From sequence record OP114733: a stretch of 64,000 bases of DNA; one strand, 5' to 3'. Source of the stretch: Escherichia phage vB_EcoM-pEB20. The notes below the pieces were generated by a model. It saw only the letters and a program-made list of their open reading frames with translations, was not told the DNA's origin and made no database searches. The translations under genes were made by a program, and so were the position numbers. Position 1 is the stretch's first letter. Each line of letters opens with the position of its first letter. Shown one piece after another: positions 5,412-46,376 of this stretch.

Positions 5412-5825
5412 ATGACCCGTATCAATTTAACACTTGTTTCTGAACTGTCCGACCAACATCTTATGGCTGAGTATCGTGAATTACCACGCGTATTTGGTGC
5501 AGTCCGTAAACATGTTCAAAACGGTAAACGTGTAAAGGATTTTAAAATCTCTCCAACATTTATCTTAGGCACAGGTCACGTAACATTCTTTTACGACAAA
5601 CTCGAATTTTTACGTTTACGACAAATCGAGCTAATCGCTGAATGCTTGAAACGTGGTTTCAAAATCAAGGACACGACTGTCCAGGATATTTCCGACATCC
5701 CTGCCGAATTTCGTAATAATTATGTCCCGTCCGAAGCGTCCATTGCGATAAGTCAAGCACGCTTAGATGAAAAAATTGCTCAACGTCCGACTTGGTACAA
5801 ATACTATGGTAAATCAATTTACTAA
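5412..5825 (+). CDS. denV: endonuclease V, pyrimidine-dimer DNA glycosylase
   Basis: [24 protein letters not shown].. near-identical to T4 EndoV as recalled. Confidence 0.9.
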
Positions 5826-7850: not shown

Positions 7851-8213
7851 ATGAAAGCATATCAAATTCTTGAAGGTACACATAAAGGCACTATTTATTT
7901 TGAAGATGGTACTCAAGCCCGGATTATTGTCTCTAAAACTTTTAAAGAAGACGCTATTGTAGACCCAGAAATTTTCTACGGTTTGCATGCCCGTGAAATT
8001 GAAATTGAACATCAACCTAAAGTTAAAATTGAAGGTGGTCAACATCTGAATGTTAACGTTCTGCGTCGTGAAACTCTAGAAGATGCAGTTAAGCATCCGG
8101 AAAAATATCCGCAGCTGACCATCCGTGTATCCGGTTATGCAGTTCGCTTTAACTCTCTGACTCCGGAACAGCAGCGCGACGTTATCGCTCGCACCTTTAC
8201 TGAGAGTCTATAA
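7851..8213 (+). CDS. autonomous glycyl-radical cofactor (GrcA/YfiD-like; T4 Y06I-type)
   Basis: C-terminal [29 protein letters not shown] glycyl radical motif, near identical to E. coli GrcA as recalled. Confidence 0.85.
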
Positions 8214-8437
8214 TGGCTAAATTGATTATAGAAGGGTCTGAAGATGTTTTAAAATGTTTTGCCGCCTGGTTTAGTTGCTCAGGCGAGCAATCATTCACTG
8301 AAGCATTTAGAACGGGTGATATTACTGGAAAATATCCGACAACCGATATCACTGTACGTGGATATGGTATTAATGAGCCTATCCAATTGGTCGAATATGA
8401 CCTTGCCACCGATGAGGAAATTCCTTATGTCGATTGA
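8213..8437 (+). CDS. hypothetical protein
   Basis: ORF track. Confidence 0.5.
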   Translation: MAKLIIEGSEDVLKCFAAWFSCSGEQSFTEAFRTGDITGKYPTTDITVRGYGINEPIQLVEYDLATDEEIPYVD

Positions 8438-8693
8438 AGACATCAAAGGCTACAAGCCGCATACCGATGATAAAATCGGTAAAGTGAACGCTATTAAAGA
8501 TGCAGAAGTCCGTCTTGGATTGTTGTTTGATGCTCTGATTGAAGAAGCATATATCTTGAAAGAAAATGAAACAGAGCAACAAACCAAAGAAGATATGGAT
8601 GCAGTGCAGGCTCTTAAGTATGCTAAGCAACATCTAAAAGAAGCCAGCATGTGGGCGTGTCGTGCAGTATTTCGACCTGAGGAAAAATACTAA
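8427..8693 (+). CDS. hypothetical protein
   Basis: Start at M57 of ORF 8259, GAGGAAA RBS 6 nt upstream. Confidence 0.5.
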   Translation: MSIEDIKGYKPHTDDKIGKVNAIKDAEVRLGLLFDALIEEAYILKENETEQQTKEDMDAVQALKYAKQHLKEASMWACRAVFRPEEKY

Positions 8694-8908
8694 TGGCTTC
8701 TACTATTACTGGGTTATTGGACTTTCAAGAAAAGGTCAACAAAATTTGTAGTGAATACTTAAAGTATCTTGAAGAAGACCTTGAAGATTGTAAGGAAGAA
8801 GGCGAAGAAGACTATGCTGACCAGCGTCGACGCCAAATCGAAGAGATGAGGCATTTCGCCAATATAGTATCTAAAGAATCTTGGGCTTTAACTCCATTTT
8901 ATCAATAA
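8693..8908 (+). CDS. hypothetical acidic protein
   Basis: ORF track. Confidence 0.5.
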   Translation: MASTITGLLDFQEKVNKICSEYLKYLEEDLEDCKEEGEEDYADQRRRQIEEMRHFANIVSKESWALTPFYQ

Positions 8909-8912
8909 AGTA

Positions 8913-8960
8913 GTTTACTTCTCCTCTAGTTGTGTTACTATAGACCTGTCAACTAGAGGA
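8913..8960 (+). promoter_or_regulatory. early promoter within 11-bp perfect inverted repeat (PeSL-like); right arm carries SD
   Basis: GTTTAC 8913-8918; arms TCCTCTAGTTG 8922-8932 and CAACTAGAGGA 8950-8960. Confidence 0.6.
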
Positions 8961-8969
8961 GAAATCAAA

Positions 8970-9428
8970 ATGACTATCAATTCAGACGTTTTTATCCGCC
9001 GTAATAAACTCCGTCGAATCTTTGAAACGGAGTTCCGCAAAATAAATGCCGGTATAAAAGATGCTGCAAAGTCTCTTGGACTACCAGGCTTTCATATCAA
9101 GTATTCTCAACATCTCTTAGATCGTGCCATCCAGAGAGAAATAGATGAGAATTACGTTTTTGAATTATTTCATAAAGTAAAAAATCACGTTAAAGAAGTT
9201 GCAGAATTTTTGTCAATGCCGGCACGTCCAGATGTTGATGAAGATTTTGTCGAAGGTGTCGAGTATCGTCCAGGCCGTTTAGAAATAACTGACGGAAATC
9301 TTTGGTTAGGACTTACAGTTTGTCGCGAAAATCCGGCATTCAAAATGAAGACTCTTCAATGCAGAATGGCTATTATTAACAGTAAACGACTACCAGGAAA
9401 AGCTTCTAAAGCAGTGATTAAAATCTAG
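8970..9428 (+). CDS. regB: RegB endoribonuclease (cleaves GGAG in early mRNAs)
   Basis: MTINSDVFIRRNKLRR..YSQHLLDRAIQREIDE..RLPGKASKAVIK resembles T4 RegB as recalled; 152 aa; synteny. Confidence 0.7.
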   Translation: MTINSDVFIRRNKLRRIFETEFRKINAGIKDAAKSLGLPGFHIKYSQHLLDRAIQREIDENYVFELFHKVKNHVKEVAEFLSMPARPDVDEDFVEGVEYRPGRLEITDGNLWLGLTVCRENPAFKMKTLQCRMAIINSKRLPGKASKAVIKI

Positions 9429-9436
9429 AGGTAAAC

Positions 9437-9979
9437 ATGAGAAAAGCACTACTCGCTGGTCTATTTGCTCTTTCATTATCAGCACATAGCTCCGAGCATA
9501 CTTTTAGTAATGTCCAACTCGATAACTTGAATTATGCTTATCAGTTTGGGGAACAGTTTTCTAAGGACGGAAAATTTAAAACGCATGAAAATATGCATAA
9601 GAAAGGACTTGGATACATAATGGCCGCAATACTATGGCAGGAATCATCCGCCGGTATTAATCTTAAAGATAAGAAAGGTCACCATGCGTATGGAATGTTC
9701 CAAAATTATCTACCAACAATGAGGGCAAGAATTAACCAGCTTGGTTATAATATGACTGATGCCCAAATTAAGAAAATGCTATCTAAGCGGTCTAATTCAG
9801 CCAGATGGGCTTATATCGAATTTTCTTATTGGTTAAATATACATAACGGGGATATAAGAAAAGCTATATCCTCATATAATGCGGGATGGAAGACAAGTGC
9901 TGGAAGTAAATATGCTTCTGAAGTCCTAGAAAAGGCTAATTACCTTAAATCAAATAAACTACTGGAAATAAAAGAATGA
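9437..9979 (+). CDS. secreted lytic-transglycosylase-like protein (SLT motif ES...AYGMFQ) with signal peptide
   Basis: N-terminal signal peptide MRKALLAGLFALSLSAHS; QESSAG..AYGMFQ matches SLT catalytic pattern. Confidence 0.6.
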   Translation: MRKALLAGLFALSLSAHSSEHTFSNVQLDNLNYAYQFGEQFSKDGKFKTHENMHKKGLGYIMAAILWQESSAGINLKDKKGHHAYGMFQNYLPTMRARINQLGYNMTDAQIKKMLSKRSNSARWAYIEFSYWLNIHNGDIRKAISSYNAGWKTSAGSKYASEVLEKANYLKSNKLLEIKE

Positions 9980-37096: not shown

Positions 37097-39808
37097 ATGA
37101 AAGAATTTTACTTAACGGTTGAACAGATTGGTGATTCAATTTTTGAACGTTACATCGATTCTAATGGCCGTGAACGTACTCGTGAAGTAGAATATAAACC
37201 ATCACTGTTTGCTCATTGTCCAGAAAGTCAGGCTACAAAATATTTCGATATCTACGGTAAGCCGTGTACTCGTAAGTTGTTCGCTAATATGCGTGATGCC
37301 TCCCAATGGATTAAACGCATGGAAGATATCGGACTTGAAGCACTTGGCATGGACGATTTCAAATTGGCGTATTTGTCTGACACTTATAACTATGAAATCA
37401 AATACGACCATACAAAAATTCGTGTGGCTAACTTCGACATCGAAGTAACATCTCCGGACGGGTTCCCTGAGCCGTCACAAGCAAAACATCCGATTGATGC
37501 TATCACCCATTATGACTCAATTGACGACAGGTTCTACGTATTTGATCTATTGAATTCTCCATATGGTAATGTAGAAGAATGGTCTATTGAAATCGCTGCT
37601 AAGCTTCAAGAACAAGGTGGTGATGAAGTTCCATCTGAAATTATCGATAAAATCATTTATATGCCGTTCGATAGCGAAAAAGAATTGTTGATGGAATATC
37701 TCAACTTCTGGCAACAGAAAACTCCTGTCATTTTGACTGGATGGAACGTTGAGTCATTTGATATTCCATATGTGTATAACCGAATCAAGAATATTTTTGG
37801 CGAATCTACTGCGAAACGTTTATCACCACATCGTAAAACTCGTGTTAAAGTTATCGAAAACATGTATGGTTCTCGTGAAATCATTACATTGTTCGGTATC
37901 TCTGTTCTTGATTACATTGACCTTTACAAAAAATTCTCTTTTACCAATCAACCGTCGTATTCTCTGGATTACATTTCAGAATTTGAATTGAACGTTGGTA
38001 AACTGAAATATGACGGCCCTATTTCTAAGCTTCGTGAAAGCAATCACCAACGATATATTTCTTATAACATTATCGACGTGTATCGTGTATTGCAAATTGA
38101 TGCTAAGCGTCAGTTCATCAACTTGAGCTTGGACATGGGTTATTATGCTAAGATACAGATTCAATCTGTGTTCAGCCCAATTAAAACATGGGATGCCATT
38201 ATTTTTAATAGCCTTAAAGAGCAGAACAAGGTGATTCCACAAGGTCGTTCTCACCCGGTTCAACCTTATCCTGGCGCTTTTGTTAAGGAACCTATTCCAA
38301 ATCGATACAAATATGTAATGAGTTTCGACCTTACATCTCTGTATCCAAGTATTATTCGCCAAGTGAATATTAGCCCGGAAACAATAGCAGGAACGTTTAA
38401 AGTAGCTCCACTGCATGATTATATTAACGCTGTTGCTGAACGTCCTTCAGATGTGTACAGTTGTTCTCCTAACGGCATGATGTATTATAAAGACCGTGAT
38501 GGTGTAGTTCCAACTGAAATCACTAAGGTCTTTAATCAACGTAAAGAACATAAAGGTTACATGCTTGCAGCTCAACGTAATGGTGAAATAATTAAAGAGG
38601 CATTGCATAATCCTAATCTTTCTGTTGACGAACCATTAGATGTTGATTATCGTTTCGACTTCAGCGATGAGATTAAAGAAAAGATTAAAAAGTTGTCTGC
38701 TAAATCTCTTAATGAAATGTTGTTTAGAGCTCAACGTACTGAAGTTGCAGGTATGACTGCACAAATTAACCGTAAATTGCTCATCAACTCACTTTATGGT
38801 GCACTTGGAAACGTTTGGTTCCGTTATTATGATTTGCGTAATGCTACTGCAATCACAACATTCGGGCAAATGGCTTTACAGTGGATTGAACGTAAAGTTA
38901 ATGAATATCTGAATGAGGTTTGTGGTACAGAAGGCGAAGCTTTCGTTCTATATGGTGATACAGACTCCATTTACGTATCTGCAGATAAAATTATTGATAA
39001 GGTTGGTGAATCTAAATTCCGTGATACCAACCATTGGGTAGACTTCTTAGATAAGTTCGCTCGTGAACGTATGGAACCAGCTATTGATAGAGGTTTCCGT
39101 GAAATGTGTGAATACATGAACAATAAACAACACTTAATGTTCATGGACCGAGAAGCTATCGCTGGGCCTCCGCTCGGTTCTAAAGGTATTGGTGGATTCT
39201 GGACTGGTAAGAAACGTTATGCATTAAACGTGTGGGATATGGAAGGTACTCGTTACGCTGAGCCTAAACTCAAAATCATGGGTCTCGAAACACAGAAATC
39301 TTCGACTCCTAAAGCAGTACAGAAAGCTCTTAAGGAATGTATTCGTCGTATGCTTCAAGAAGGTGAAGAATCATTACAAGAATATTTTAAAGAGTTTGAA
39401 AAAGAATTCCGTCAATTGAATTATATTAGCATCGCGTCGGTATCTTCTGCGAATAACATTGCTAAATATGACGTCGGTGGATTCCCTGGCCCCAAATGTC
39501 CGTTCCATATTCGTGGAATTCTGACATATAACCGGGCTATCAAAGGTAATATTGATGCTCCACAAGTTGTAGAAGGTGAAAAAGTATATGTTCTGCCTTT
39601 ACGTGAAGGAAACCCATTCGGTGATAAATGTATCGCATGGCCTTCTGGTACTGAAATCACAGATTTAATTAAAGACGACGTACTTCATTGGATGGACTAC
39701 ACTGTTCTCCTTGAGAAGACATTTATTAAACCACTTGAAGGATTCACATCAGCAGCGAAACTCGATTACGAGAAGAAAGCATCTCTGTTCGATATGTTCG
39801 ATTTTTGA
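37097..39808 (+). CDS. 43: DNA polymerase gp43 (family B)
   Basis: 903 aa; exo motifs FDIEV and YGDTDS; matches RB69 gp43 as recalled. Confidence 0.97.
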   Translation: MKEFYLTVEQIGDSIFERYIDSNGRERTREVEYKPSLFAHCPESQATKYFDIYGKPCTRKLFANMRDASQWIKRMEDIGLEALGMDDFKLAYLSDTYNYEIKYDHTKIRVANFDIEVTSPDGFPEPSQAKHPIDAITHYDSIDDRFYVFDLLNSPYGNVEEWSIEIAAKLQEQGGDEVPSEIIDKIIYMPFDSEKELLMEYLNFWQQKTPVILTGWNVESFDIPYVYNRIKNIFGESTAKRLSPHRKTRVKVIENMYGSREIITLFGISVLDYIDLYKKFSFTNQPSYSLDYISEFELNVGKLKYDGPISKLRESNHQRYISYNIIDVYRVLQIDAKRQFINLSLDMGYYAKIQIQSVFSPIKTWDAIIFNSLKEQNKVIPQGRSHPVQPYPGAFVKEPIPNRYKYVMSFDLTSLYPSIIRQVNISPETIAGTFKVAPLHDYINAVAERPSDVYSCSPNGMMYYKDRDGVVPTEITKVFNQRKEHKGYMLAAQRNGEIIKEALHNPNLSVDEPLDVDYRFDFSDEIKEKIKKLSAKSLNEMLFRAQRTEVAGMTAQINRKLLINSLYGALGNVWFRYYDLRNATAITTFGQMALQWIERKVNEYLNEVCGTEGEAFVLYGDTDSIYVSADKIIDKVGESKFRDTNHWVDFLDKFARERMEPAIDRGFREMCEYMNNKQHLMFMDREAIAGPPLGSKGIGGFWTGKKRYALNVWDMEGTRYAEPKLKIMGLETQKSSTPKAVQKALKECIRRMLQEGEESLQEYFKEFEKEFRQLNYISIASVSSANNIAKYDVGGFPGPKCPFHIRGILTYNRAIKGNIDAPQVVEGEKVYVLPLREGNPFGDKCIAWPSGTEITDLIKDDVLHWMDYTVLLEKTFIKPLEGFTSAAKLDYEKKASLFDMFDF

Positions 39809-39848
39809 TATAATGTCATGGACGGTAAACTAATTAAATGAGAGAAAT

Positions 39849-40484
39849 ATGAAAACTACTCCTATTACTATCGCTATTGACGCAATTATAAAACAAGCTT
39901 CTTCTTTGGCCGCTATGGCCAAAGTAATTAGTCAAAACCCTGCTCGTTATAATGCTATTCTAGAAACTCTTCGACGCCCTGGACTTAGTAATTATGAAAG
40001 CCGGGTAATTATTACAGGTGTTGGTAAGAATGCTAATATCGCAACTAAAGCTTCCGAGACTTTTGCTTCACTCGGTATCCCGAGTATGTACTTGAACACT
40101 GGGCATTATTCTCACGGTGATGCAGGATTCATTGCGCCTAATGATGTGTTGATTCATATTAGTCGTTCTGGTAAAACTGAAGAAATGATAGGCGTGGCTA
40201 AGCATCTTAAAATGATTCGTCCGAATGTCAAACAGATTCTGTTGCATTGTAACCCAGACATTCCACAAGAAAATGAAGCCCTTTTTGATTACTCTTTCTG
40301 TACAGGCATCGCGGTAGAGGTTGATGAGAATTCTCTGGCTCCGACTATGTCCACTACATTGTTGTTAGCGCTTATCGATACGTTTGCTATCAACCTTTCG
40401 TCTGAGCGTGGATTTACCTCTAATGACTTCCTTAAGTTCCATCCAGGCGGTGCACTAGGTGCCATGTTACGAGGCGAACAATGA
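39849..40484 (+). CDS. SIS-domain sugar-phosphate isomerase (KdsD/GutQ-like arabinose-5-phosphate isomerase core, no CBS domains)
   Basis: VIITGVGKNANIATK, HGDAGF, LAPTMSTT, FHPGGALGAML match KdsD SIS domain pattern. Confidence 0.7.
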   Translation: MKTTPITIAIDAIIKQASSLAAMAKVISQNPARYNAILETLRRPGLSNYESRVIITGVGKNANIATKASETFASLGIPSMYLNTGHYSHGDAGFIAPNDVLIHISRSGKTEEMIGVAKHLKMIRPNVKQILLHCNPDIPQENEALFDYSFCTGIAVEVDENSLAPTMSTTLLLALIDTFAINLSSERGFTSNDFLKFHPGGALGAMLRGEQ

Positions 40485-40624
40485 AAGCAATAACAATAGG
40501 ACTTTTACTATTGATGCTTGTCATGACTATCTACTGGAGCTTAACGGCTCCAGTAATGATTCCAACACTTGTAATTGGATGGATTATGATTGGACTACAA
40601 GCAAAGTATGAATGCTTTAACTAG
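40481..40624 (+). CDS. 47-aa two-TM membrane peptide (below ORF-track cutoff)
   Basis: ATGA overlap with SIS gene stop. Confidence 0.35.
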   Translation: MKAITIGLLLLMLVMTIYWSLTAPVMIPTLVIGWIMIGLQAKYECFN

Positions 40625-40665
40625 AATAGTGTACAATACTCCTACTTACCAATGAGGACTTCAAC

Positions 40666-42351
40666 ATGAAAAAAGCTGTTATTCTTGGTGCTGGACTGGC
40701 AACTCGTTTGTATCCAATAACGCACCATATTCCTAAGGTGCTTGTTAACTATAAACAAGACACTATTCTAAGCAATTTGTATACAATTTATTCTGACCTT
40801 GGCGCAGATGAAATTATTGTAGTAGTTCATTCAAAATTTGCTGAAACTGTTCGAGCTTATTGTGAGCAAGAAGGGTTCAATGTGACTATTCGTACAGTTG
40901 ATGAAGCGTATGGTTCTGCTTATGCTCTTGCTAAATTACACAAAGATTTAGACGGCCATAATGTAATTGTTAACTGGTGTGATATTATTCCTGATTTTGG
41001 TTCATGGTCTTGGAATGTTAACGCAATCTATGTTAAGGGTGACGAATGTCGATATAATTTCGACGGTGAAAATATCACTAACGTAGGTTCAACAGGTGGT
41101 AATGTTGTAGGAATTTATCAGTTCAAAGACTGGGAATTCTATATGGGTTCTACTGATGAGGAAATTCATGAATACTGCAAAGGACGTGATTTCGTAGAAT
41201 TCCTTTACGGCAGCGCATTCAATAAATCAGAGCTTATGAATCTAATTGATTTAGGTGATATGCCTAAACTTGAAAAAGCTCATGAAGTTCGTGAACTTAA
41301 TCGTAGTTTTAATGCAGTTGAAATTGGTGAAGAAACTGTAACTAAATTCGCATTAACCGAACAGGGTCGAGCTCTTCAGAAAGATGAGATTTCATGGTAT
41401 CTTAAAGTGAAATCAGATTCAGTTCCTCAGTTAGTTTCGGTAAATGAAAATAATTTTGAAATGGAACGTATTAAAGGTAAGCCGGCATTTGAATATATTA
41501 AATCCAAATCAAGTCTTGCTCGTCCACAAATTGTTGATGCAATTTTAGATGCACTGAAATTCAGCACAGACACTTATTTTGTAAGTCCTGAAACTGTTCG
41601 TCGTGATTTCACTAAAGAGTTCTATACGAAAGTTATTGATCGTTGTGAAAGCATTCAACCATTGATTGATTCATTTGGTAAAATCACACATGTGAACTAC
41701 ACTAAGATTGGACGTCTGAAGCCAATGCTGAAACAAGCTTTAGAACACCTTATTCGTTATCATAACCGTTCTCAGGGACAGTACTCTGTTATTCATGGTG
41801 ACCCGAACTTCAGTAATACTATGATTACTGATAACGGCGAAGTCAAGTTTATAGACCCTCGTGGATATTTTGGCGAAACCAAGATTTATGGGCCAAAATT
41901 GTATGATGAAGCTAAAGTGCTTTATGCTGTTTCAGGATATGATGAATTCAATGCTAATCCGACCTGGGGACAGTTTACTATTGATGAAACAACTTGTAAT
42001 GTGACTATTAACATCAATCCATTAGTTTACAAATATGGAAAGATGAGTTCGTTTAACGAGTATCATCATTTGGCTGTAGCAATTATCTGGATTGCATTAG
42101 GTGGTTATTTCAAGAATAATCCACTTAAAGCGGTAGCCGCATATTATAAAGGTATGGAACTTCTGACTAAGCAATTACGTAACATGGGCCGTGTACTTCA
42201 GGACGGCTCTATTAGTTATGACGTAGCAGAACCTGTAACGGCTACTCTGATTACAAAAAATCCTGGTAAATGGGTACTAACTGATAAAGAAACCGGTGTT
42301 TCCTATCGTCCAATCGGTGGCGATATCACTCATCAATGGGAACGAATTTAA
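40666..42351 (+). CDS. bifunctional sugar-1-phosphate nucleotidyltransferase (N) / sugar kinase of APH-ChoK fold (C)
   Basis: N-terminal GAGLATRLYPIT (RmlA-like); C-terminal HGDPNFSN...IDPRG (Brenner motif plus metal-binding Asp). Confidence 0.7.
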   Translation: MKKAVILGAGLATRLYPITHHIPKVLVNYKQDTILSNLYTIYSDLGADEIIVVVHSKFAETVRAYCEQEGFNVTIRTVDEAYGSAYALAKLHKDLDGHNVIVNWCDIIPDFGSWSWNVNAIYVKGDECRYNFDGENITNVGSTGGNVVGIYQFKDWEFYMGSTDEEIHEYCKGRDFVEFLYGSAFNKSELMNLIDLGDMPKLEKAHEVRELNRSFNAVEIGEETVTKFALTEQGRALQKDEISWYLKVKSDSVPQLVSVNENNFEMERIKGKPAFEYIKSKSSLARPQIVDAILDALKFSTDTYFVSPETVRRDFTKEFYTKVIDRCESIQPLIDSFGKITHVNYTKIGRLKPMLKQALEHLIRYHNRSQGQYSVIHGDPNFSNTMITDNGEVKFIDPRGYFGETKIYGPKLYDEAKVLYAVSGYDEFNANPTWGQFTIDETTCNVTININPLVYKYGKMSSFNEYHHLAVAIIWIALGGYFKNNPLKAVAAYYKGMELLTKQLRNMGRVLQDGSISYDVAEPVTATLITKNPGKWVLTDKETGVSYRPIGGDITHQWERI

Positions 42352-42716
42352 TGCAACTATGCTTCGATGTCGATGATTGTATAACCGAATGGAATAACAA
42401 TCGTGATTACGCTAATTTTAAACCGGACCTAGAAATGGTGGCAGCCATTAATGCCTTGTATGACGCAGGGCATACCATCACGCTTTACACTGCTCGTGGT
42501 ATGAAGTCTGTAGGTCCTGGACGTATTGCTGTAGATATCCTACCAGGTCTGTTACAGAACTTAGCTAACATTGGTTTGAAGTATCATAATTTGCTAACAC
42601 ATAAACCAGTATATGATTGGATTATCGACGACAAAGCTATGCGTCCTGACGAATTCAAAGCTCTTATGAATAAAGGCGAATTCGAAACATTTAAATCATA
42701 TAAACCAAATCTATAA
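42351..42716 (+). CDS. small HAD-superfamily phosphatase
   Basis: N-terminal FDVDDCIT (DxD motif I), ITLYTARG, WIIDDKAM; TAATG coupling to upstream gene. Confidence 0.6.
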   Translation: MQLCFDVDDCITEWNNNRDYANFKPDLEMVAAINALYDAGHTITLYTARGMKSVGPGRIAVDILPGLLQNLANIGLKYHNLLTHKPVYDWIIDDKAMRPDEFKALMNKGEFETFKSYKPNL

Positions 42717-42762
42717 TAATTTAAGTAAGACCTGCAAAAACCGTCGCATCAATTAACGCGAG

Positions 42763-43932
42763 ATGCAAAAAATGAATACTTTTAAAATTGGAACGAATTT
42801 CGATTTAGCTCTTCTTGATAAAATCGTAGAGCTCAATAAAACTTATCCTAATAGCTTGATAAATGAAGTATACGGCTCTACAAGAGAAATGGCTTTTGTA
42901 GCAGCCAGACCTGATTTTAGGCTTCCTGACGTTGACAAAAAGATGTTAGAAGACTACGTTAAACGTTGTAACGAATTAGGTATTTGCTTTAACTATACAC
43001 TCAACACGATAAATCCTGGTTCAAAAAGAGAACTAGTTGAGTGGAAGAAGAAAGCTATTCAGGATTATGTTCAGTATCTTTGGTCAATAGGCGTATGGCG
43101 TATTACTATCGCTAACCCTGTTGTTATGGAAATTGTTCGTGAAGTCAATAAAGACATTGAGATTGAAGTTTCAACAATTCTACATGTCGATGCTGTAACT
43201 CAAATCAAATACTTGCATGACCAGTATAATATCAAAAAGGTCTGCTGTGGAATTCATAAGAACCGTTCAGTTTCTTTCCTGAAGCGTGCAGCAGAGTTTT
43301 GCAATAAGAACAATATAATATTTGAAGTTCTTGTAAATGAGTTCTGTTCTAATGCTGGTAAAGGGTATACAACACATTGTAGCTATCGTGACTCTTGCTA
43401 TATTTTCCATAGTACTGATGTTACAGCTGATGATGCTAAATCCTTAAACGGATATCCTATGCAGCACTGTATTAAAGCTCGTGATACAGACCCATTTAAC
43501 TGGTTGAGAACTCGTTTTGTTCGTCCTCAAGATTTGAAACTTTATAATGATATTGGTATCACTCAATTTAAAGTTTCAGGACGTACAGGTAGCACAGACT
43601 ACATTTTGAAAGTTCTTGAAGCATACGCTTCTGAAAAGTTTGAAGGTAATTTGTTAGAACTGTGGAAGCCTTTAGAGACTATTTTCACTCTTGAAAACGA
43701 AACTGAGTTTTCACATACGGTAAATATTGAAACCTCTTTGTTAGACGGCTTTTTAGAAAAAAGGTGGTTCAGACATCCAGATTTCGATTGTGCTAATGAA
43801 ATCTGCGGGACGACGTGTACATATTGTGAAAGATATTATAAACGTCAGTTATCTAAAAATGGGTTATCAGAAAACTCTATATCTATTATTGATATAACTA
43901 ACTCTGATGACGCTTTGAGGTACCCGGAATGA
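42763..43932 (+). CDS. Cys-rich enzyme of unknown function (C-terminal CX4CX3CX2C); candidate Fe-S protein or transferase
   Basis: ORF track; CANEICGTTCTYC near C-terminus. Confidence 0.55.
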   Translation: MQKMNTFKIGTNFDLALLDKIVELNKTYPNSLINEVYGSTREMAFVAARPDFRLPDVDKKMLEDYVKRCNELGICFNYTLNTINPGSKRELVEWKKKAIQDYVQYLWSIGVWRITIANPVVMEIVREVNKDIEIEVSTILHVDAVTQIKYLHDQYNIKKVCCGIHKNRSVSFLKRAAEFCNKNNIIFEVLVNEFCSNAGKGYTTHCSYRDSCYIFHSTDVTADDAKSLNGYPMQHCIKARDTDPFNWLRTRFVRPQDLKLYNDIGITQFKVSGRTGSTDYILKVLEAYASEKFEGNLLELWKPLETIFTLENETEFSHTVNIETSLLDGFLEKRWFRHPDFDCANEICGTTCTYCERYYKRQLSKNGLSENSISIIDITNSDDALRYPE

Positions 43933-44168
43933 TTTCTAGAAAAACTTTTAACCACCAACTTAATGAAGAGATTTTGACTATAAAACTGAACACTAACGAA
44001 CAAATTCTTAAAAAGGCCCTGATGGGCCTGTTTGAAACTAAAGCGGCTAAAGTGATTAAAGAACCTGTTCAATTGGAATACTACGCTGATGCATTTCTTC
44101 ATAGTGTTCTTGGAAGTATCGATGCTGAAGCTTTACGTTATATCAACATTGTCAAGAAATTCAAATAA
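43929..44168 (+). CDS. hypothetical protein
   Basis: ORF track. Confidence 0.5.
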   Translation: MISRKTFNHQLNEEILTIKLNTNEQILKKALMGLFETKAAKVIKEPVQLEYYADAFLHSVLGSIDAEALRYINIVKKFK

Positions 44169-44210
44169 GCTTTACGAATTGAGTATATAATAAATTGTAT
44201 TGAGGTAAAC

Positions 44211-44927
44211 ATGGGAAAACATAACACAATGAAATATATCAAAGCCGCAGATTTTCAAACCGCATTTAAAGCAGTCAATCGTGAAATTTTAGAAAACCCG
44301 GAATTCGTAACTGATTCTCGTATTGGACGTTGTAATGAAATTGGGTCTATGACAGTAGTTGTTGACACTCCATCATCATTCAAAATGACCGACCCACGTA
44401 TTAACCGCATCTCTTATGAATATGCCGAAGACTTCTGGAAGTTTATGATTTCTGGTGGTACCAACGCAGAAGAAGCGTTTAAGGCATATCCTAATGTCGC
44501 TAAATTTATTTCTAAACCAAAATCAGATGTTTTGCCGGCGAACTTCAACACTTTCTATGGTCCTCGCATTGCGGCCCAATTACCAGCTCTTCTAAAAGAA
44601 CTTAAAGAGAAGCCTAACTCTCGAAGAGTTGTGTTCCAAATTCTAGAAAGTTCTGATCAGGCTTTGCTTGATTCAGACGAAACGCTTGAATATCCATGTA
44701 CTGACTCAGTGACTTATTATATTCGTGATGGTAAGCTTTATACCCACTGTCATATGCGTTCTCAGAACTGTGCTGTTGTTATGCAGTTGGATTTTTATCT
44801 CCAAGGAAAATTACTTCATTATATCGCTAACGAATGCGGTGTAGAAGTTGGTGATTATACTCATACCATGGTAAGTGCCCATGTGTTTGAACGTGATTTT
44901 GATTATGTTAAAGGATTCCTTGACTAA
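44211..44927 (+). CDS. 42: thymidylate-synthase-fold pyrimidine hydroxymethylase (gp42-like dCMP hydroxymethylase)
   Basis: NSRR..PCTDSVTYYIRDGKL..HMRSQN pattern parallels T4 gp42 active-site region as recalled; position between 43 and uvsX. Confidence 0.6.
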   Translation: MGKHNTMKYIKAADFQTAFKAVNREILENPEFVTDSRIGRCNEIGSMTVVVDTPSSFKMTDPRINRISYEYAEDFWKFMISGGTNAEEAFKAYPNVAKFISKPKSDVLPANFNTFYGPRIAAQLPALLKELKEKPNSRRVVFQILESSDQALLDSDETLEYPCTDSVTYYIRDGKLYTHCHMRSQNCAVVMQLDFYLQGKLLHYIANECGVEVGDYTHTMVSAHVFERDFDYVKGFLD

Positions 44928-45826
44928 TGGCTATTTTCCGCGTACCTATCTTGAGTATGCGGTCTTATGAAACTGGACAGTATGCTATCCTTAAGGATGG
45001 CAACTTCCAACTTCATTTGCACCGTGCTAATCCGGGTGATGTGATTACATATCCACGTAATGCATCTGATATTAAAGAATGCGAACGTCTTTTCCCAGAA
45101 TTTAAGTTTGTTCCGTTATGGTATAAAGATAACGCATATAATACTCGTAAATATTTCTGGTCTGAAAATGAATTTGTAGTTGATTCGTTGATTGCTTATT
45201 ATGATTGTGATTTTCTCATCACGGATATCACTGGATATGATGGTGCTTTTGACGTAGAATTCAATTTCAATATCACTGCAGACCCTAATAAACCACGTTT
45301 TTATATTGACGAATTCTTAAAAACTGATATGTTGTCGGTTAATCGTTCACTTCAAACTACTGTGTTGAATGAACGTCAAAAAGAAGTGCTGGTTAACGCA
45401 GGTGCAGATGGTAATAAGATTATCGTAACGCAGAAAGTTATACGTCCTTCCATCATGCAGCGTCTTGTAGGTGATTTGGCTCCTATTCATCTAGATGGTA
45501 TTTTTCATCCATTTCGAATTAGTGACCCGTGCTATCGTTTTGAACAAGTGGTTGAATGTGCAATTCAATTAGGCCAACCGCTTTATATAACCGATCCAAA
45601 TAATAGCTTCGACAGAAATAAGTATCCTGAAGAAGCACTGATTCGAATTTTTAAACCAACTAAAACTGAGTACTATCAAATTCTTAAAGGACGTCCGAAG
45701 ATTCAATATTTCGAAAATCCTGAAGAAGTATTCCATCCAGGTCTTGGTGAGTTCATCTACTTTAACGCTTTAATTTCTTCGCCGTATAATATACCTAAAT
45801 ATGAAGATGTCGTAATCGAGGAATAA
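44927..45826 (+). CDS. hypothetical 299-aa protein at beta-gt position; candidate DNA glycosyltransferase
   Basis: ORF track; no motif recognised; synteny only. Confidence 0.5.
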   Translation: MAIFRVPILSMRSYETGQYAILKDGNFQLHLHRANPGDVITYPRNASDIKECERLFPEFKFVPLWYKDNAYNTRKYFWSENEFVVDSLIAYYDCDFLITDITGYDGAFDVEFNFNITADPNKPRFYIDEFLKTDMLSVNRSLQTTVLNERQKEVLVNAGADGNKIIVTQKVIRPSIMQRLVGDLAPIHLDGIFHPFRISDPCYRFEQVVECAIQLGQPLYITDPNNSFDRNKYPEEALIRIFKPTKTEYYQILKGRPKIQYFENPEEVFHPGLGEFIYFNALISSPYNIPKYEDVVIEE

Positions 45827-45827
45827 A

Positions 45828-46376
45828 ATGGCTAAAATTATTTTAGTAGATGGCCCGGATAATGCTGGTAAAACAACTTTCATTAATGACATAATGGAAA
45901 TTAGTGAAAGATATGTAAAGATTGATTTCCCTAAACGAACAGTTGATGGGCGTTTCGATGTTAAGTCTCGAAATGAAGTTGGCTGTTTCGAAACGATGTT
46001 GAATTATTTAGACCCTACTAAGATTTATCTGTTAGACCGTGGATATATTAGTAACTGGGTTTATGGACGTATTCGACAAGATGCGGACTCGATTCTTGAC
46101 GTTTATGAACAGGACTATGTTCGTCTTTGCCAAAACCATGATGTGTTCACAATTATTTTAACACGTAACGAAATGACTGAAAGTTTTGAAGACGACCTTA
46201 TTACTTTGTCTTCACTCAGTTTCAATACAGTCATTTCACATTTTGAAGAGTTTGCAATTCATAACAAAATCCAAACGTATCAATTACTTAATCATGATGG
46301 TGCTAACAAAGTTATAGGATTTAATGCAAGCGAACGTAATTATTTGATTACAGAAATTATCAAATGGGCTCGTTAA
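45828..46376 (+). CDS. P-loop (deoxy)nucleotide/nucleoside kinase-like
   Basis: Walker A GPDNAGKTT; LLDRGYISNWVYG resembles dNK/TMPK DR motif. Confidence 0.6.
   Translation: MAKIILVDGPDNAGKTTFINDIMEISERYVKIDFPKRTVDGRFDVKSRNEVGCFETMLNYLDPTKIYLLDRGYISNWVYGRIRQDADSILDVYEQDYVRLCQNHDVFTIILTRNEMTESFEDDLITLSSLSFNTVISHFEEFAIHNKIQTYQLLNHDGANKVIGFNASERNYLITEIIKWAR

What the first reader, a model, noticed from the sequence alone, without database searches (positions are those of the whole stretch)
40666..42351. Single polypeptide fusing a sugar-1-P nucleotidyltransferase with an APH/ChoK-type kinase
The N-terminus has GAGLATRLYPIT, the RmlA/GalU-type signature. The C-terminal third has HGDPNFSN followed by IDPRG, the catalytic loop and metal-binding Asp of aminoglycoside-phosphotransferase-fold kinases. 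The domain order is the reverse of HldE and resembles LicA/LicC-type or anomeric sugar kinase-pyrophosphorylase fusions. The substrate cannot be read from sequence.
Basis: partly seen in the sequence, partly recalled or inferred. Interest (0 to 1): 0.7.

Follow-up and report, generated by a model that had tools for sequence, protein, structure and literature searches.

The report
Phage arabinose kinase–nucleotidyltransferase fusion enzyme
This gene of an RB69-like T4-type phage encodes a known two-domain enzyme that helps make the activated arabinose sugar the phage attaches to the cytosines of its DNA, so the finding is real and correctly read but already described.

Summary

The protein is the intact form of RB69 ORF053c+ORF052c. 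The RB69 record splits that gene by a one-base sequencing error, which was corrected by resequencing in 2018. A 2026 paper describes RB69 gp52:53 as the counterpart of AfhE of phage HY126. [quoted passage not shown]

The flanking genes complete the route from ribulose-5-P to UDP-arabinofuranose. They are an arabinose-5-P isomerase upstream and a small HAD phosphatase downstream whose start overlaps the fusion gene's stop. A ThyA-like 5-hydroxy-dCMP synthase and a glycosyltransferase further downstream use the product to build arabinosyl-5-hydroxycytosine DNA.

Novelty: already known. Interest: low.

The parts
40666..42351 (+). The fused gene itself (561 aa, 63.9 kDa). It is the orthologue of RB69 ORF53_52c (gp52:53) and the reported counterpart of HY126 AfhE, a D-arabinose-5-P 1-kinase and UDP-arabinose pyrophosphorylase.
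   Evidence: ORF and translation. phrog_4098 full length. After removal of the extra C in the RB69 record, the protein differs from RB69's at 2 of 561 residues. Literature: PMC6024577, PMC13326640.
40666..41295 (+). N-terminal sugar-1-phosphate nucleotidyltransferase domain (about residues 1-210). It carries the GxGxxxR...K signature (G10, R14, K24) and invariant acidic residues D106, D195 and D198.
41296..42213 (+). APH/choline-kinase-fold kinase domain (about residues 211-516). It has K227, E241, H377-G-D379-x4-N384 and D397 in IDPRG.
42214..42348 (+). C-terminal tail of 45 residues (517-561). The model shows a small beta-rich element of unknown role.
   Evidence: The tail is present and conserved only in the closer phage homologues. 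It is up to 91% identical where the kinase domain is 66%, and it is absent from homologues below about 36% identity. Modelled at block-mean pLDDT 81-91.
39849..40484 (+). Arabinose-5-phosphate isomerase (single SIS domain, KpsF/GutQ/KdsD type). This is pathway step 1, ribulose-5-P to arabinose-5-P.
   Evidence: Pfam SIS E 1e-10. phrog_5670 E 4e-116. NCBIfam kpsF 2e-32 and KdsD 7e-31, below the equivalog cut-offs because the CBS half is missing.
42351..42716 (+). Small HAD-type phosphatase (121 aa, counterpart of AfhF and RB69 gp51). Its ATG overlaps the stop of the fused gene in a TAATG. RefSeq mislabels it 'phosphoheptose isomerase'.
   Evidence: Sequence at 42349-42353. NCBIfam TIGR01689 capsule biosynthesis phosphatase 5.4e-12. 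About 93% identical to PDB 9iqw. Role: PMC13326640 section 27.
42763..43932 (+). Peptidase_U32-family protein (RB69 gp50). It belongs to the same gene module, and its role is unassigned.
   Evidence: Pfam PF01136 E 7.4e-11. Weak hit to UbiU. Cysteine pattern.
44211..44927 (+). ThyA-like 5-hydroxy-dCMP synthase (RB69 gp48). It makes the hydroxyl acceptor for the arabinose.
   Evidence: Pfam Thymidylat_synt. About 98% identical to PDB 9iqc/9ir2. Activity was shown for RB69 gp48 in PMC13326640.
44927..45826 (+). Putative first DNA arabinosyltransferase (299 aa). It is intact here and split into ORF047c and ORF046c in the RB69 record.
   Evidence: phrog_3891. tblastn to RB69 aligns only residues 1-181 in one frame. 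Assignment proposed in PMC13326640 section 26.
45828..46376 (+). Thymidylate-kinase-like nucleotide kinase (RB69 gp45), last gene of the module before uvsX.
   Evidence: phrog_761 E 8.5e-45. RB69 annotation.

Best explanation
The gene encodes the bifunctional middle enzyme of a phage pathway that makes UDP-D-arabinofuranose, the sugar donor for arabinosylating 5-hydroxycytosine in the phage's DNA.

Proposed route:
1. The phage SIS isomerase (39849-40484) converts host ribulose-5-P to D-arabinose-5-P.
2. The C-terminal APH/choline-kinase-fold domain of this protein uses ATP to phosphorylate the anomeric C1-OH, giving arabinose-1,5-bisphosphate. D379 is the likely catalytic base, N384 and D397 bind Mg, and K227 and E241 hold the ATP phosphates.
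3. The HAD phosphatase (42351-42716), whose start overlaps this gene's stop, removes the 5-phosphate to give arabinose-1-P.
4. The N-terminal nucleotidyltransferase domain condenses arabinose-1-P with UTP to give UDP-arabinofuranose and pyrophosphate. G10, R14 and K24 bind the NTP, and D106, D195 and D198 are candidate metal ligands.
5. Phage glycosyltransferases then transfer the arabinose to 5-hydroxycytosine, which the ThyA-like enzyme introduced at the dCMP level.

Shown here: the ORF, both folds, invariance of the catalytic residues, near-identity to RB69 gp52:53, and the conserved gene neighbourhood.
Taken from the literature: the activities of the HY126 homologue AfhE and of AfhF, and the chemistry of the DNA modification in RB69 and Bas46.
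Inferred: that this particular protein has the same activities, the residue roles, and the nucleotide used.
For: - Fold and motifs.
- Identity: the protein differs from resequenced RB69 ORF53_52c at 2 of 561 residues. It is 100% identical to proteins of phages PhAPEC2, G53 and NRG-P0074, and 99.3% identical to that of Bas46, where it is annotated 'putative enzyme involved in UDP-arabinose biosynthesis'.
- Context in the window: SIS isomerase, fusion gene, HAD phosphatase, U32 protein, ThyA-like gene, glycosyltransferase and kinase lie between DNA polymerase and uvsX.
- Context elsewhere: the fusion, HAD, ThyA-like and glycosyltransferase genes are also linked in Acinetobacter phage Maestro, E. 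coli phage JS98 and Klebsiella phage VAC36. In Tenacibaculum phage PTm5 the fusion is followed by an annotated, non-homologous 'histidine phosphatase' and then a ThyA-like gene. That fits a pathway that needs a phosphatase step.
- Rosetta-stone fusions: distant homologues carry HAD, SIS, NTP_transferase and kinase in one chain.
- Literature: PMC13326640 section 27 equates RB69 gp52:53 with HY126 AfhE, reported by He et al. [quoted passage not shown] UDP-Araf, not UDP-Arap, served as donor in their in vitro tri-arabinosylation (section 26).
- PDB entries 9iqw and 9iqc are about 93% and 98% identical to the window's HAD and ThyA-like proteins. So close relatives of the neighbouring genes have been studied structurally.
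Against: - No activity has been measured for this exact protein.
- I could not read the primary AfhE paper or obtain the HY126 AfhE sequence. Its identity to the window protein is therefore inferred, not computed.
- The kinase domain alone does not reach the Pfam APH gathering score.
- Table 1 of PMC13326640 still lists the alternative order, phosphatase first and then a kinase acting on free arabinose. The order rests on one secondary report.
- Nucleotide specificity cannot be read from the sequence.
Confidence: 0.85

Rival explanations
1. The chemistry is the same but the order differs. The HAD phosphatase first removes the phosphate from arabinose-5-P. The kinase domain then acts as an anomeric kinase on free D-arabinose to give arabinose-1-P, in the manner of AmgK/MurU, and the N-terminal domain activates it.
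Against: The text of the same paper, citing assays by He et al. [quoted passage not shown] Lee et al. also report that the models of the phosphatase homologues (DLP3 gp81, RB69 gp51) have FoldSeek hits to heptose-1,7-bisphosphate 7-phosphatase. That enzyme works in the kinase-first heptose route.
Confidence: 0.1
2. The N-terminal domain makes a different nucleotide sugar, such as CDP-, GDP- or dTDP-arabinose, rather than UDP-arabinose.
For: The best sequence and fold matches include enzymes specific for CTP (LicC), GTP (HddC, GMPP) and dTTP (RmlA), as well as UTP. Lee et al. mostly write 'NDP-arabinose, potentially UDP-arabinose'.
Against: AfhE is reported as a UDP-D-arabinose pyrophosphorylase. 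UDP-Araf was accepted by the DLP3 arabinosyltransferases in vitro.
Confidence: 0.04
3. The enzyme activates another sugar phosphate, such as ribose, heptose or choline-like substrates, for a purpose other than DNA modification, for example changing the host surface.
For: The closest solved structures act on phosphocholine, heptose-1-P and MurNAc-1-P. The downstream phosphatase matches a family called 'capsule biosynthesis phosphatase'.
Against: The gene sits inside the DNA replication and modification module, next to an arabinose-5-P isomerase and the 5-hydroxy-dCMP synthase. That linkage holds across distant phages. RB69 and Bas46 DNA is reported to contain arabinose (PMC6024577; PMC13326640).
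Confidence: 0.01

Closest known systems
RB69 ORF53_52c (gp52:53), with the identical proteins of PhAPEC2, G53 and NRG-P0074 and the 99.3% identical protein of Bas46
   Same: Same gene. The protein is 561 aa and 63.9 kDa, and differs from RB69's at two residues (H92Y, Q233H) once the extra C in the record is removed. The neighbours and their order are the same.
   Different: The deposited RB69 record shows two overlapping ORFs because of one extra base. The window shows the intact frame. Nothing else differs.
AfhE of E. coli phage HY126 (He et al. 2026, Nat Chem Biol, as summarised in PMC13326640)
   Same: Lee et al. describe AfhE as analogous to the bifunctional RB69 gp52:53 and its domain architecture as consistent with AfhE's. 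AfhE works with the phosphatase AfhF in the route from arabinose-5-P to UDP-arabinose. Probable HY126 structures of the neighbouring proteins are 93-98% identical to the window's.
   Different: The AfhE sequence and the primary paper were not available to me, so the identity is not computed. The window protein itself has not been assayed.
LicC plus LicA (CTP:phosphocholine cytidylyltransferase and choline kinase of Streptococcus pneumoniae)
   Different: They are separate proteins, the substrate is choline rather than a sugar phosphate, no intervening phosphatase is needed, and sequence identity is only 11-21%.
AmgK plus MurU (anomeric MurNAc/GlcNAc kinase and MurNAc-1-P uridylyltransferase)
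   Different: They are normally two genes. The substrate is a free sugar, not a sugar 5-phosphate. There is no bisphosphate intermediate or phosphatase. The comparison with AmgK rests on my own knowledge and was not tested here.
HldE plus GmhB (heptose-7-P kinase/heptose-1-P adenylyltransferase and bisphosphate phosphatase)
   Same: The pathway logic is identical: sugar phosphate, then anomeric kinase, then bisphosphate, then phosphatase, then sugar-1-P, then NDP-sugar. Kinase and transferase are fused in one chain.
   Different: The case is convergent. The HldE kinase has a ribokinase fold and sits at the N-terminus, and its transferase has a cytidylyltransferase fold at the C-terminus (established knowledge). 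No HldE-family hits were found.

Membership tests
AfhE / RB69 gp52:53 family (phrog_4098), bifunctional arabinose-5-P kinase and UDP-arabinose pyrophosphorylase | Full-length collinear homology to family members | tested here: met
   phrog_4098 matches residues 1-561 to profile positions 1-559 of 559 with E 3.7e-295. Two substitutions against corrected RB69 gp52:53.
AfhE / RB69 gp52:53 family (phrog_4098), bifunctional arabinose-5-P kinase and UDP-arabinose pyrophosphorylase | N-terminal nucleotidyltransferase domain with an intact NTP-binding signature | tested here: met
AfhE / RB69 gp52:53 family (phrog_4098), bifunctional arabinose-5-P kinase and UDP-arabinose pyrophosphorylase | C-terminal kinase domain of the APH/choline-kinase fold with catalytic HxDxxxxN and a metal-binding Asp | tested here: met
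AfhE / RB69 gp52:53 family (phrog_4098), bifunctional arabinose-5-P kinase and UDP-arabinose pyrophosphorylase | Genomic linkage to an arabinose-5-P isomerase, a small HAD phosphatase, a ThyA-like 5-hydroxy-dCMP synthase and a glycosyltransferase | tested here: met
   All are present in order between gene 43 and uvsX. The linkage recurs in Maestro, JS98 and VAC36, although the last two lack the isomerase within 8 kb.
AfhE / RB69 gp52:53 family (phrog_4098), bifunctional arabinose-5-P kinase and UDP-arabinose pyrophosphorylase | Sequence identity to the assayed HY126 AfhE itself | not tested
   Neither the sequence nor the paper was available. Close relatedness is inferred from the 93-98% identity of the neighbouring proteins to PDB 9iqw and 9iqc.
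AfhE / RB69 gp52:53 family (phrog_4098), bifunctional arabinose-5-P kinase and UDP-arabinose pyrophosphorylase | The two enzymatic activities, and arabinosyl-5-hydroxycytosine in the virion DNA | not testable with these tools
   Reported for HY126 (activities) and for RB69, Bas46 and Bas47 (the modification) in PMC13326640. Not measured for this phage.
Pfam APH (PF01636) phosphotransferase enzyme family | Score at or above the family's gathering threshold | tested here: not met
   14.4 bits against 23.2, E 0.034. Twelve of 47 homologues pass individually. The protein therefore belongs to the fold and superfamily but is not a Pfam-defined APH member.
HldE-type bifunctional heptose kinase/adenylyltransferase | N-terminal ribokinase-fold kinase and C-terminal cytidylyltransferase-fold transferase | tested here: not met
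   The domain order is reversed and both folds differ. No HldE or PfkB family hit appears in Pfam or NCBIfam.

The most novel reading that the evidence does not exclude
The conserved 45-residue C-terminal tail (residues 517-561) occurs only in the T4-like phage branch of the family. It may be a docking element that assembles the fusion enzyme with the phosphatase encoded by the overlapping downstream gene, and perhaps with the isomerase, into a channelling complex. The labile arabinose-1,5-bisphosphate and arabinose-1-P would then never leave the complex. Such a complex would be a non-covalent equivalent of the four-domain HAD-SIS-transferase-kinase polypeptides seen on giant-virus-like contigs. 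I found no held paper that discusses the tail, but I could not read He et al. 2026.
Probability: 0.15. Interest if true: 0.35.

Novelty: already known. Interest (0 to 1): 0.15.

Why it matters
The enzyme supplies the activated sugar for arabinosyl-5-hydroxycytosine. This DNA hypermodification shields RB69-like phages from restriction enzymes and shapes which bacterial defence systems can target them. The gene is a useful marker for predicting this modification in new phage genomes, including therapeutic candidates. It is also a compact two-step biocatalyst for making UDP-D-arabinofuranose. All of this is already in the literature, so the window adds only one more intact copy. That copy confirms that the split ORFs in the RB69 reference record are an artefact.

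Tried and rejected
- Foldseek against the PDB listed only N-terminal-domain matches in its top 50, so it was not informative for the kinase half.
- The primary AfhE paper (He et al. 2026) is not held. Searches for 'AfhE' and 'HY126' returned only the NAR paper. Its supplements are not held. HY126 was not among the 60 listed rows of 373 phage records with a match.
- The promoter and terminator scan of 39700-44300 gave no more sites than shuffled sequence. Nothing can be said about transcription units.
- I considered and rejected HldE membership (wrong folds and order) and a glycosyltransferase reading. The old CDD 'GT-A' comment on ORF053c was already dismissed by Thomas et al. 2018.
- I did not run the 1.84-billion-protein HMMER search, the metagenome or genome scans, or a second structure prediction. 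The identification was already unambiguous.

Full report
**Observation.** The window holds one ORF from 40666 to 42351 on the + strand, 561 codons plus TAA. A GAGGA ribosome-binding site lies 7 nt upstream of the ATG. GAGLATRLYPIT is at residues 8-19, HGDPNFSN at 377-384 and IDPRG at 396-400.

**Where the window comes from.** Megablast of 39800-44000 finds 190 phage records. Of these, 149 are at 95-99% identity, and they include RB69, PhAPEC2, JS09 and the O157 typing phages. The neighbours are T4-type replication genes: clamp loader 44/62, DNA polymerase 43 and uvsX. The window is therefore an RB69-like Mosigvirus.

**Domain tests.**
- Pfam gives NTP_transferase for residues 3-99 (E 8.5e-10, 39.1 bits against a cut-off of 21.2) and NTP_transf_3.
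- The kinase half gives only sub-threshold hits to APH, EcKL, RIO1, fructosamine kinase and ABC1 around residues 344-409. On single-sequence HMM evidence alone the kinase call would be weak.
- PHROGs matches the whole protein to phrog_4098 (E 3.7e-295, function 'unknown') and residues 211-517 to phrog_21938.
- A protein search found 319 homologues. I aligned 47 of them, spanning 73% down to 29% identity.
- Invariant columns in that alignment include G10, R14, K24, D106, D195 and D198 in the first half. In the second half they include K227, E241, G378, D379, N384 and D397-P-R-G400.
- Twelve of the 47 members hit Pfam APH individually, with E down to 6e-10.
- The family profile hits PDB HddC (8e-14), LicC (1.8e-11) and GDP-mannose pyrophosphorylases.

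No solved structure of the fusion protein itself was found.

**Relation to the RB69 reference.** In NC_004928 the region is annotated as two overlapping ORFs, 053c ('similar to mannose-1-P guanyltransferase') and 052c. Aligning the window to RB69 shows a single extra C in the RB69 record after window position 41319. Removing it restores a 561-aa protein of 63.86 kDa that differs from the window's at two residues, H92Y and Q233H. Thomas et al. 2018 (PMC6024577) had already resequenced this region and found no such cytosine. They merged the ORFs into 'ORF53_52c' (561 residues, 63.9 kDa), saw one induced band on SDS-PAGE, and proposed a role in UDP-arabinose synthesis. They give the base as C-29116, whereas my alignment places it at record coordinate 29126. 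I did not resolve this 10-base difference.

**Function in the literature.**
- Lee et al. 2026 (PMC13326640) show that RB69 DNA carries mono- and di-arabinosylated 5-hydroxycytosine.
- They show that the ThyA homologue gp48 makes 5-hydroxy-dCMP. They assign gp55, gp52:53 and gp51 to the route from ribulose-5-P to NDP-arabinofuranose.
- They state that HY126 AfhE, characterised by He et al. [quoted passage not shown]
- They state that AfhF is the Mg-dependent phosphatase acting between the two steps, and that RB69 gp52:53 is the counterpart of AfhE.
- UDP-Araf served as donor in their in vitro arabinosylation.
- The BASEL phage Bas46 (ChristianSchoenbein) has a 99.3% identical protein annotated 'putative enzyme involved in UDP-arabinose biosynthesis'.
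- A 2026 Durham-collection paper also lists the sugar kinase and NTP-transferase of Mosigvirus in this role.
- I could not read He et al. directly.

**Independent context evidence gathered here.**
- In the window, the fusion gene is preceded by a single-SIS-domain KpsF/KdsD-like isomerase.
- It is followed by a 121-aa HAD phosphatase whose ATG overlaps the fusion's stop codon as TAATG at 42349-42353.
- Next come a U32-family protein, the ThyA-like gene, a 299-aa glycosyltransferase candidate and a thymidylate-kinase-like gene.
- The HAD protein is about 93% identical to PDB 9iqw, and the ThyA-like protein about 98% identical to 9iqc/9ir2. These are probably the HY126 structures. That is my inference, because the tool gives no source organism.
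- tblastn shows that the fusion, HAD, ThyA-like, glycosyltransferase and kinase genes are also linked in Acinetobacter phage Maestro, E. coli phage JS98 and Klebsiella phage VAC36.
- In Tenacibaculum phage PTm5 a 27%-identical fusion is followed by an annotated 'histidine phosphatase' and a ThyA-like gene.
- Distant homologues of 890-955 aa carry HAD, SIS, NTP_transferase and the kinase in one chain. This is a Rosetta-stone argument that the four activities belong to one pathway.

**Mechanism and its uncertainty.** The best-supported scheme has three steps. The kinase domain makes arabinose-1,5-bisphosphate from arabinose-5-P. The HAD enzyme removes the 5-phosphate. The N-terminal domain then makes UDP-Araf. 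This parallels the HldE/GmhB heptose pathway in logic but uses unrelated folds in the reverse order. The main residual uncertainty is the order of the kinase and phosphatase steps, because Table 1 of Lee et al. still lists the phosphatase-first version. The second uncertainty is the nucleotide used. Neither can be settled from sequence.

**Verdict.** The gene was recognised in 2018 and functionally assigned in 2025-2026. The window protein is 100% identical to the translated gene in deposited phage genomes such as PhAPEC2, G53 and NRG-P0074. It is therefore already known, and interest is low. The only feature I could not find discussed is the conserved 45-residue C-terminal tail, which is restricted to the closer phage homologues. 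Several side observations are listed separately.

Noticed in passing
window 42763-43932 (+): A Peptidase_U32-family protein (RB69 gp50) sits between the HAD phosphatase and the 5-hydroxy-dCMP synthase. Its only NCBIfam hit is a weak one to UbiU, the O2-independent ubiquinone hydroxylase (E 9e-4). From my own knowledge, U32 members RlhA and TrhP make 5-hydroxy-C and 5-hydroxy-U in rRNA and tRNA. The protein has cysteines C194, C205, C211 and C235, plus a C-terminal CX4CX3CX2C at 342-354. It might be an oxygen-independent route to 5-hydroxycytosine that backs up the O2- and flavin-dependent ThyA-like enzyme. Lee et al. label it 'sugar or heterocycle reductase' and do not mention U32, RlhA or TrhP. 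No held paper links them.
   Followed up: partly
L002:6001-8781 (also L003 and L004); proteins P0084, P0088, P0089, P0091, P0092: Homologues of 890-955 aa fuse HAD, SIS, NTP_transferase and the kinase in one chain, so the whole route from ribulose-5-P to NDP-arabinose may sit in a single polypeptide. P0084 lies on contigs beside a MutS-HNH gene and an RNA polymerase Rpb2 gene, which is a giant-virus-like context, inside assembly GCA_013558355.1. P0091 comes from a eukaryotic transcriptome. This suggests nucleotide-arabinose synthesis in giant viruses.
   Followed up: partly
L006 (JS98) 8001-9674; L007 (Klebsiella phage VAC36) 8001-9665: In Dhakavirus JS98 and Marfavirus VAC36 the fusion enzyme is only 42-43% identical to the window's. 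The neighbouring HAD, ThyA-like, glycosyltransferase and U32 genes are 62-86% identical, and no SIS isomerase lies within 8 kb. These phages either rely on host KdsD/GutQ for arabinose-5-P, or their enzyme has shifted to another sugar.
   Followed up: no
L009 (Tenacibaculum phage PTm5) 8001-10939: A 27%-identical fusion enzyme is followed by an annotated 'histidine phosphatase' instead of a HAD phosphatase, and then by a ThyA-like pyrimidine-modifying gene. This looks like a non-homologous replacement of the phosphatase step. It hints at glycosylated hydroxy-pyrimidine DNA in a Bacteroidota phage.
   Followed up: no
window 42214-42348 (residues 517-561 of the fusion protein): A 45-residue C-terminal tail is strongly conserved in the closer phage homologues. 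In Serratia phage X20 it is 91% identical where the kinase domain is 66%. It is absent from homologues below about 36% identity. It is modelled as a small beta-rich element with block-mean pLDDT 81-91. Its role is unknown.
   Followed up: partly
window 44927-45826 (+): The 299-aa glycosyltransferase candidate is one intact ORF here. The RB69 record splits it into ORF047c and ORF046c, and tblastn aligns only residues 1-181 in one frame. This supports the statement by Lee et al. that this split is also a sequencing error in RB69.
   Followed up: partly
window 42351-42716 (+): RefSeq and PHROGs name this small protein 'phosphoheptose isomerase'. It starts MQLCFDVDDC, which carries the HAD DxD motif. 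It matches a HAD-IIIA capsule-biosynthesis phosphatase family and PDB 9iqw. The isomerase name looks like a propagated misannotation.
   Followed up: yes
window 40482-40625 (+): A small, very hydrophobic ORF (MKAITIGLLLLMLVMTIYWSL...) lies between the isomerase and the fusion gene. It corresponds to RB69 ORF054c and bas46_0147, and its start overlaps the stop of the isomerase gene. It is probably a membrane peptide of unknown role.
   Followed up: no
window about 42354, compared with L001 about 5555-5575: RB69 carries 21 extra bases just after the fusion gene's stop, at the start of the phosphatase gene. The N-terminus of the phosphatase therefore differs between the window (121 aa from the ATG at 42351) and the RB69 annotation (128 aa). 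PDB 9iqw has 14 residues that precede the aligned region.
   Followed up: no
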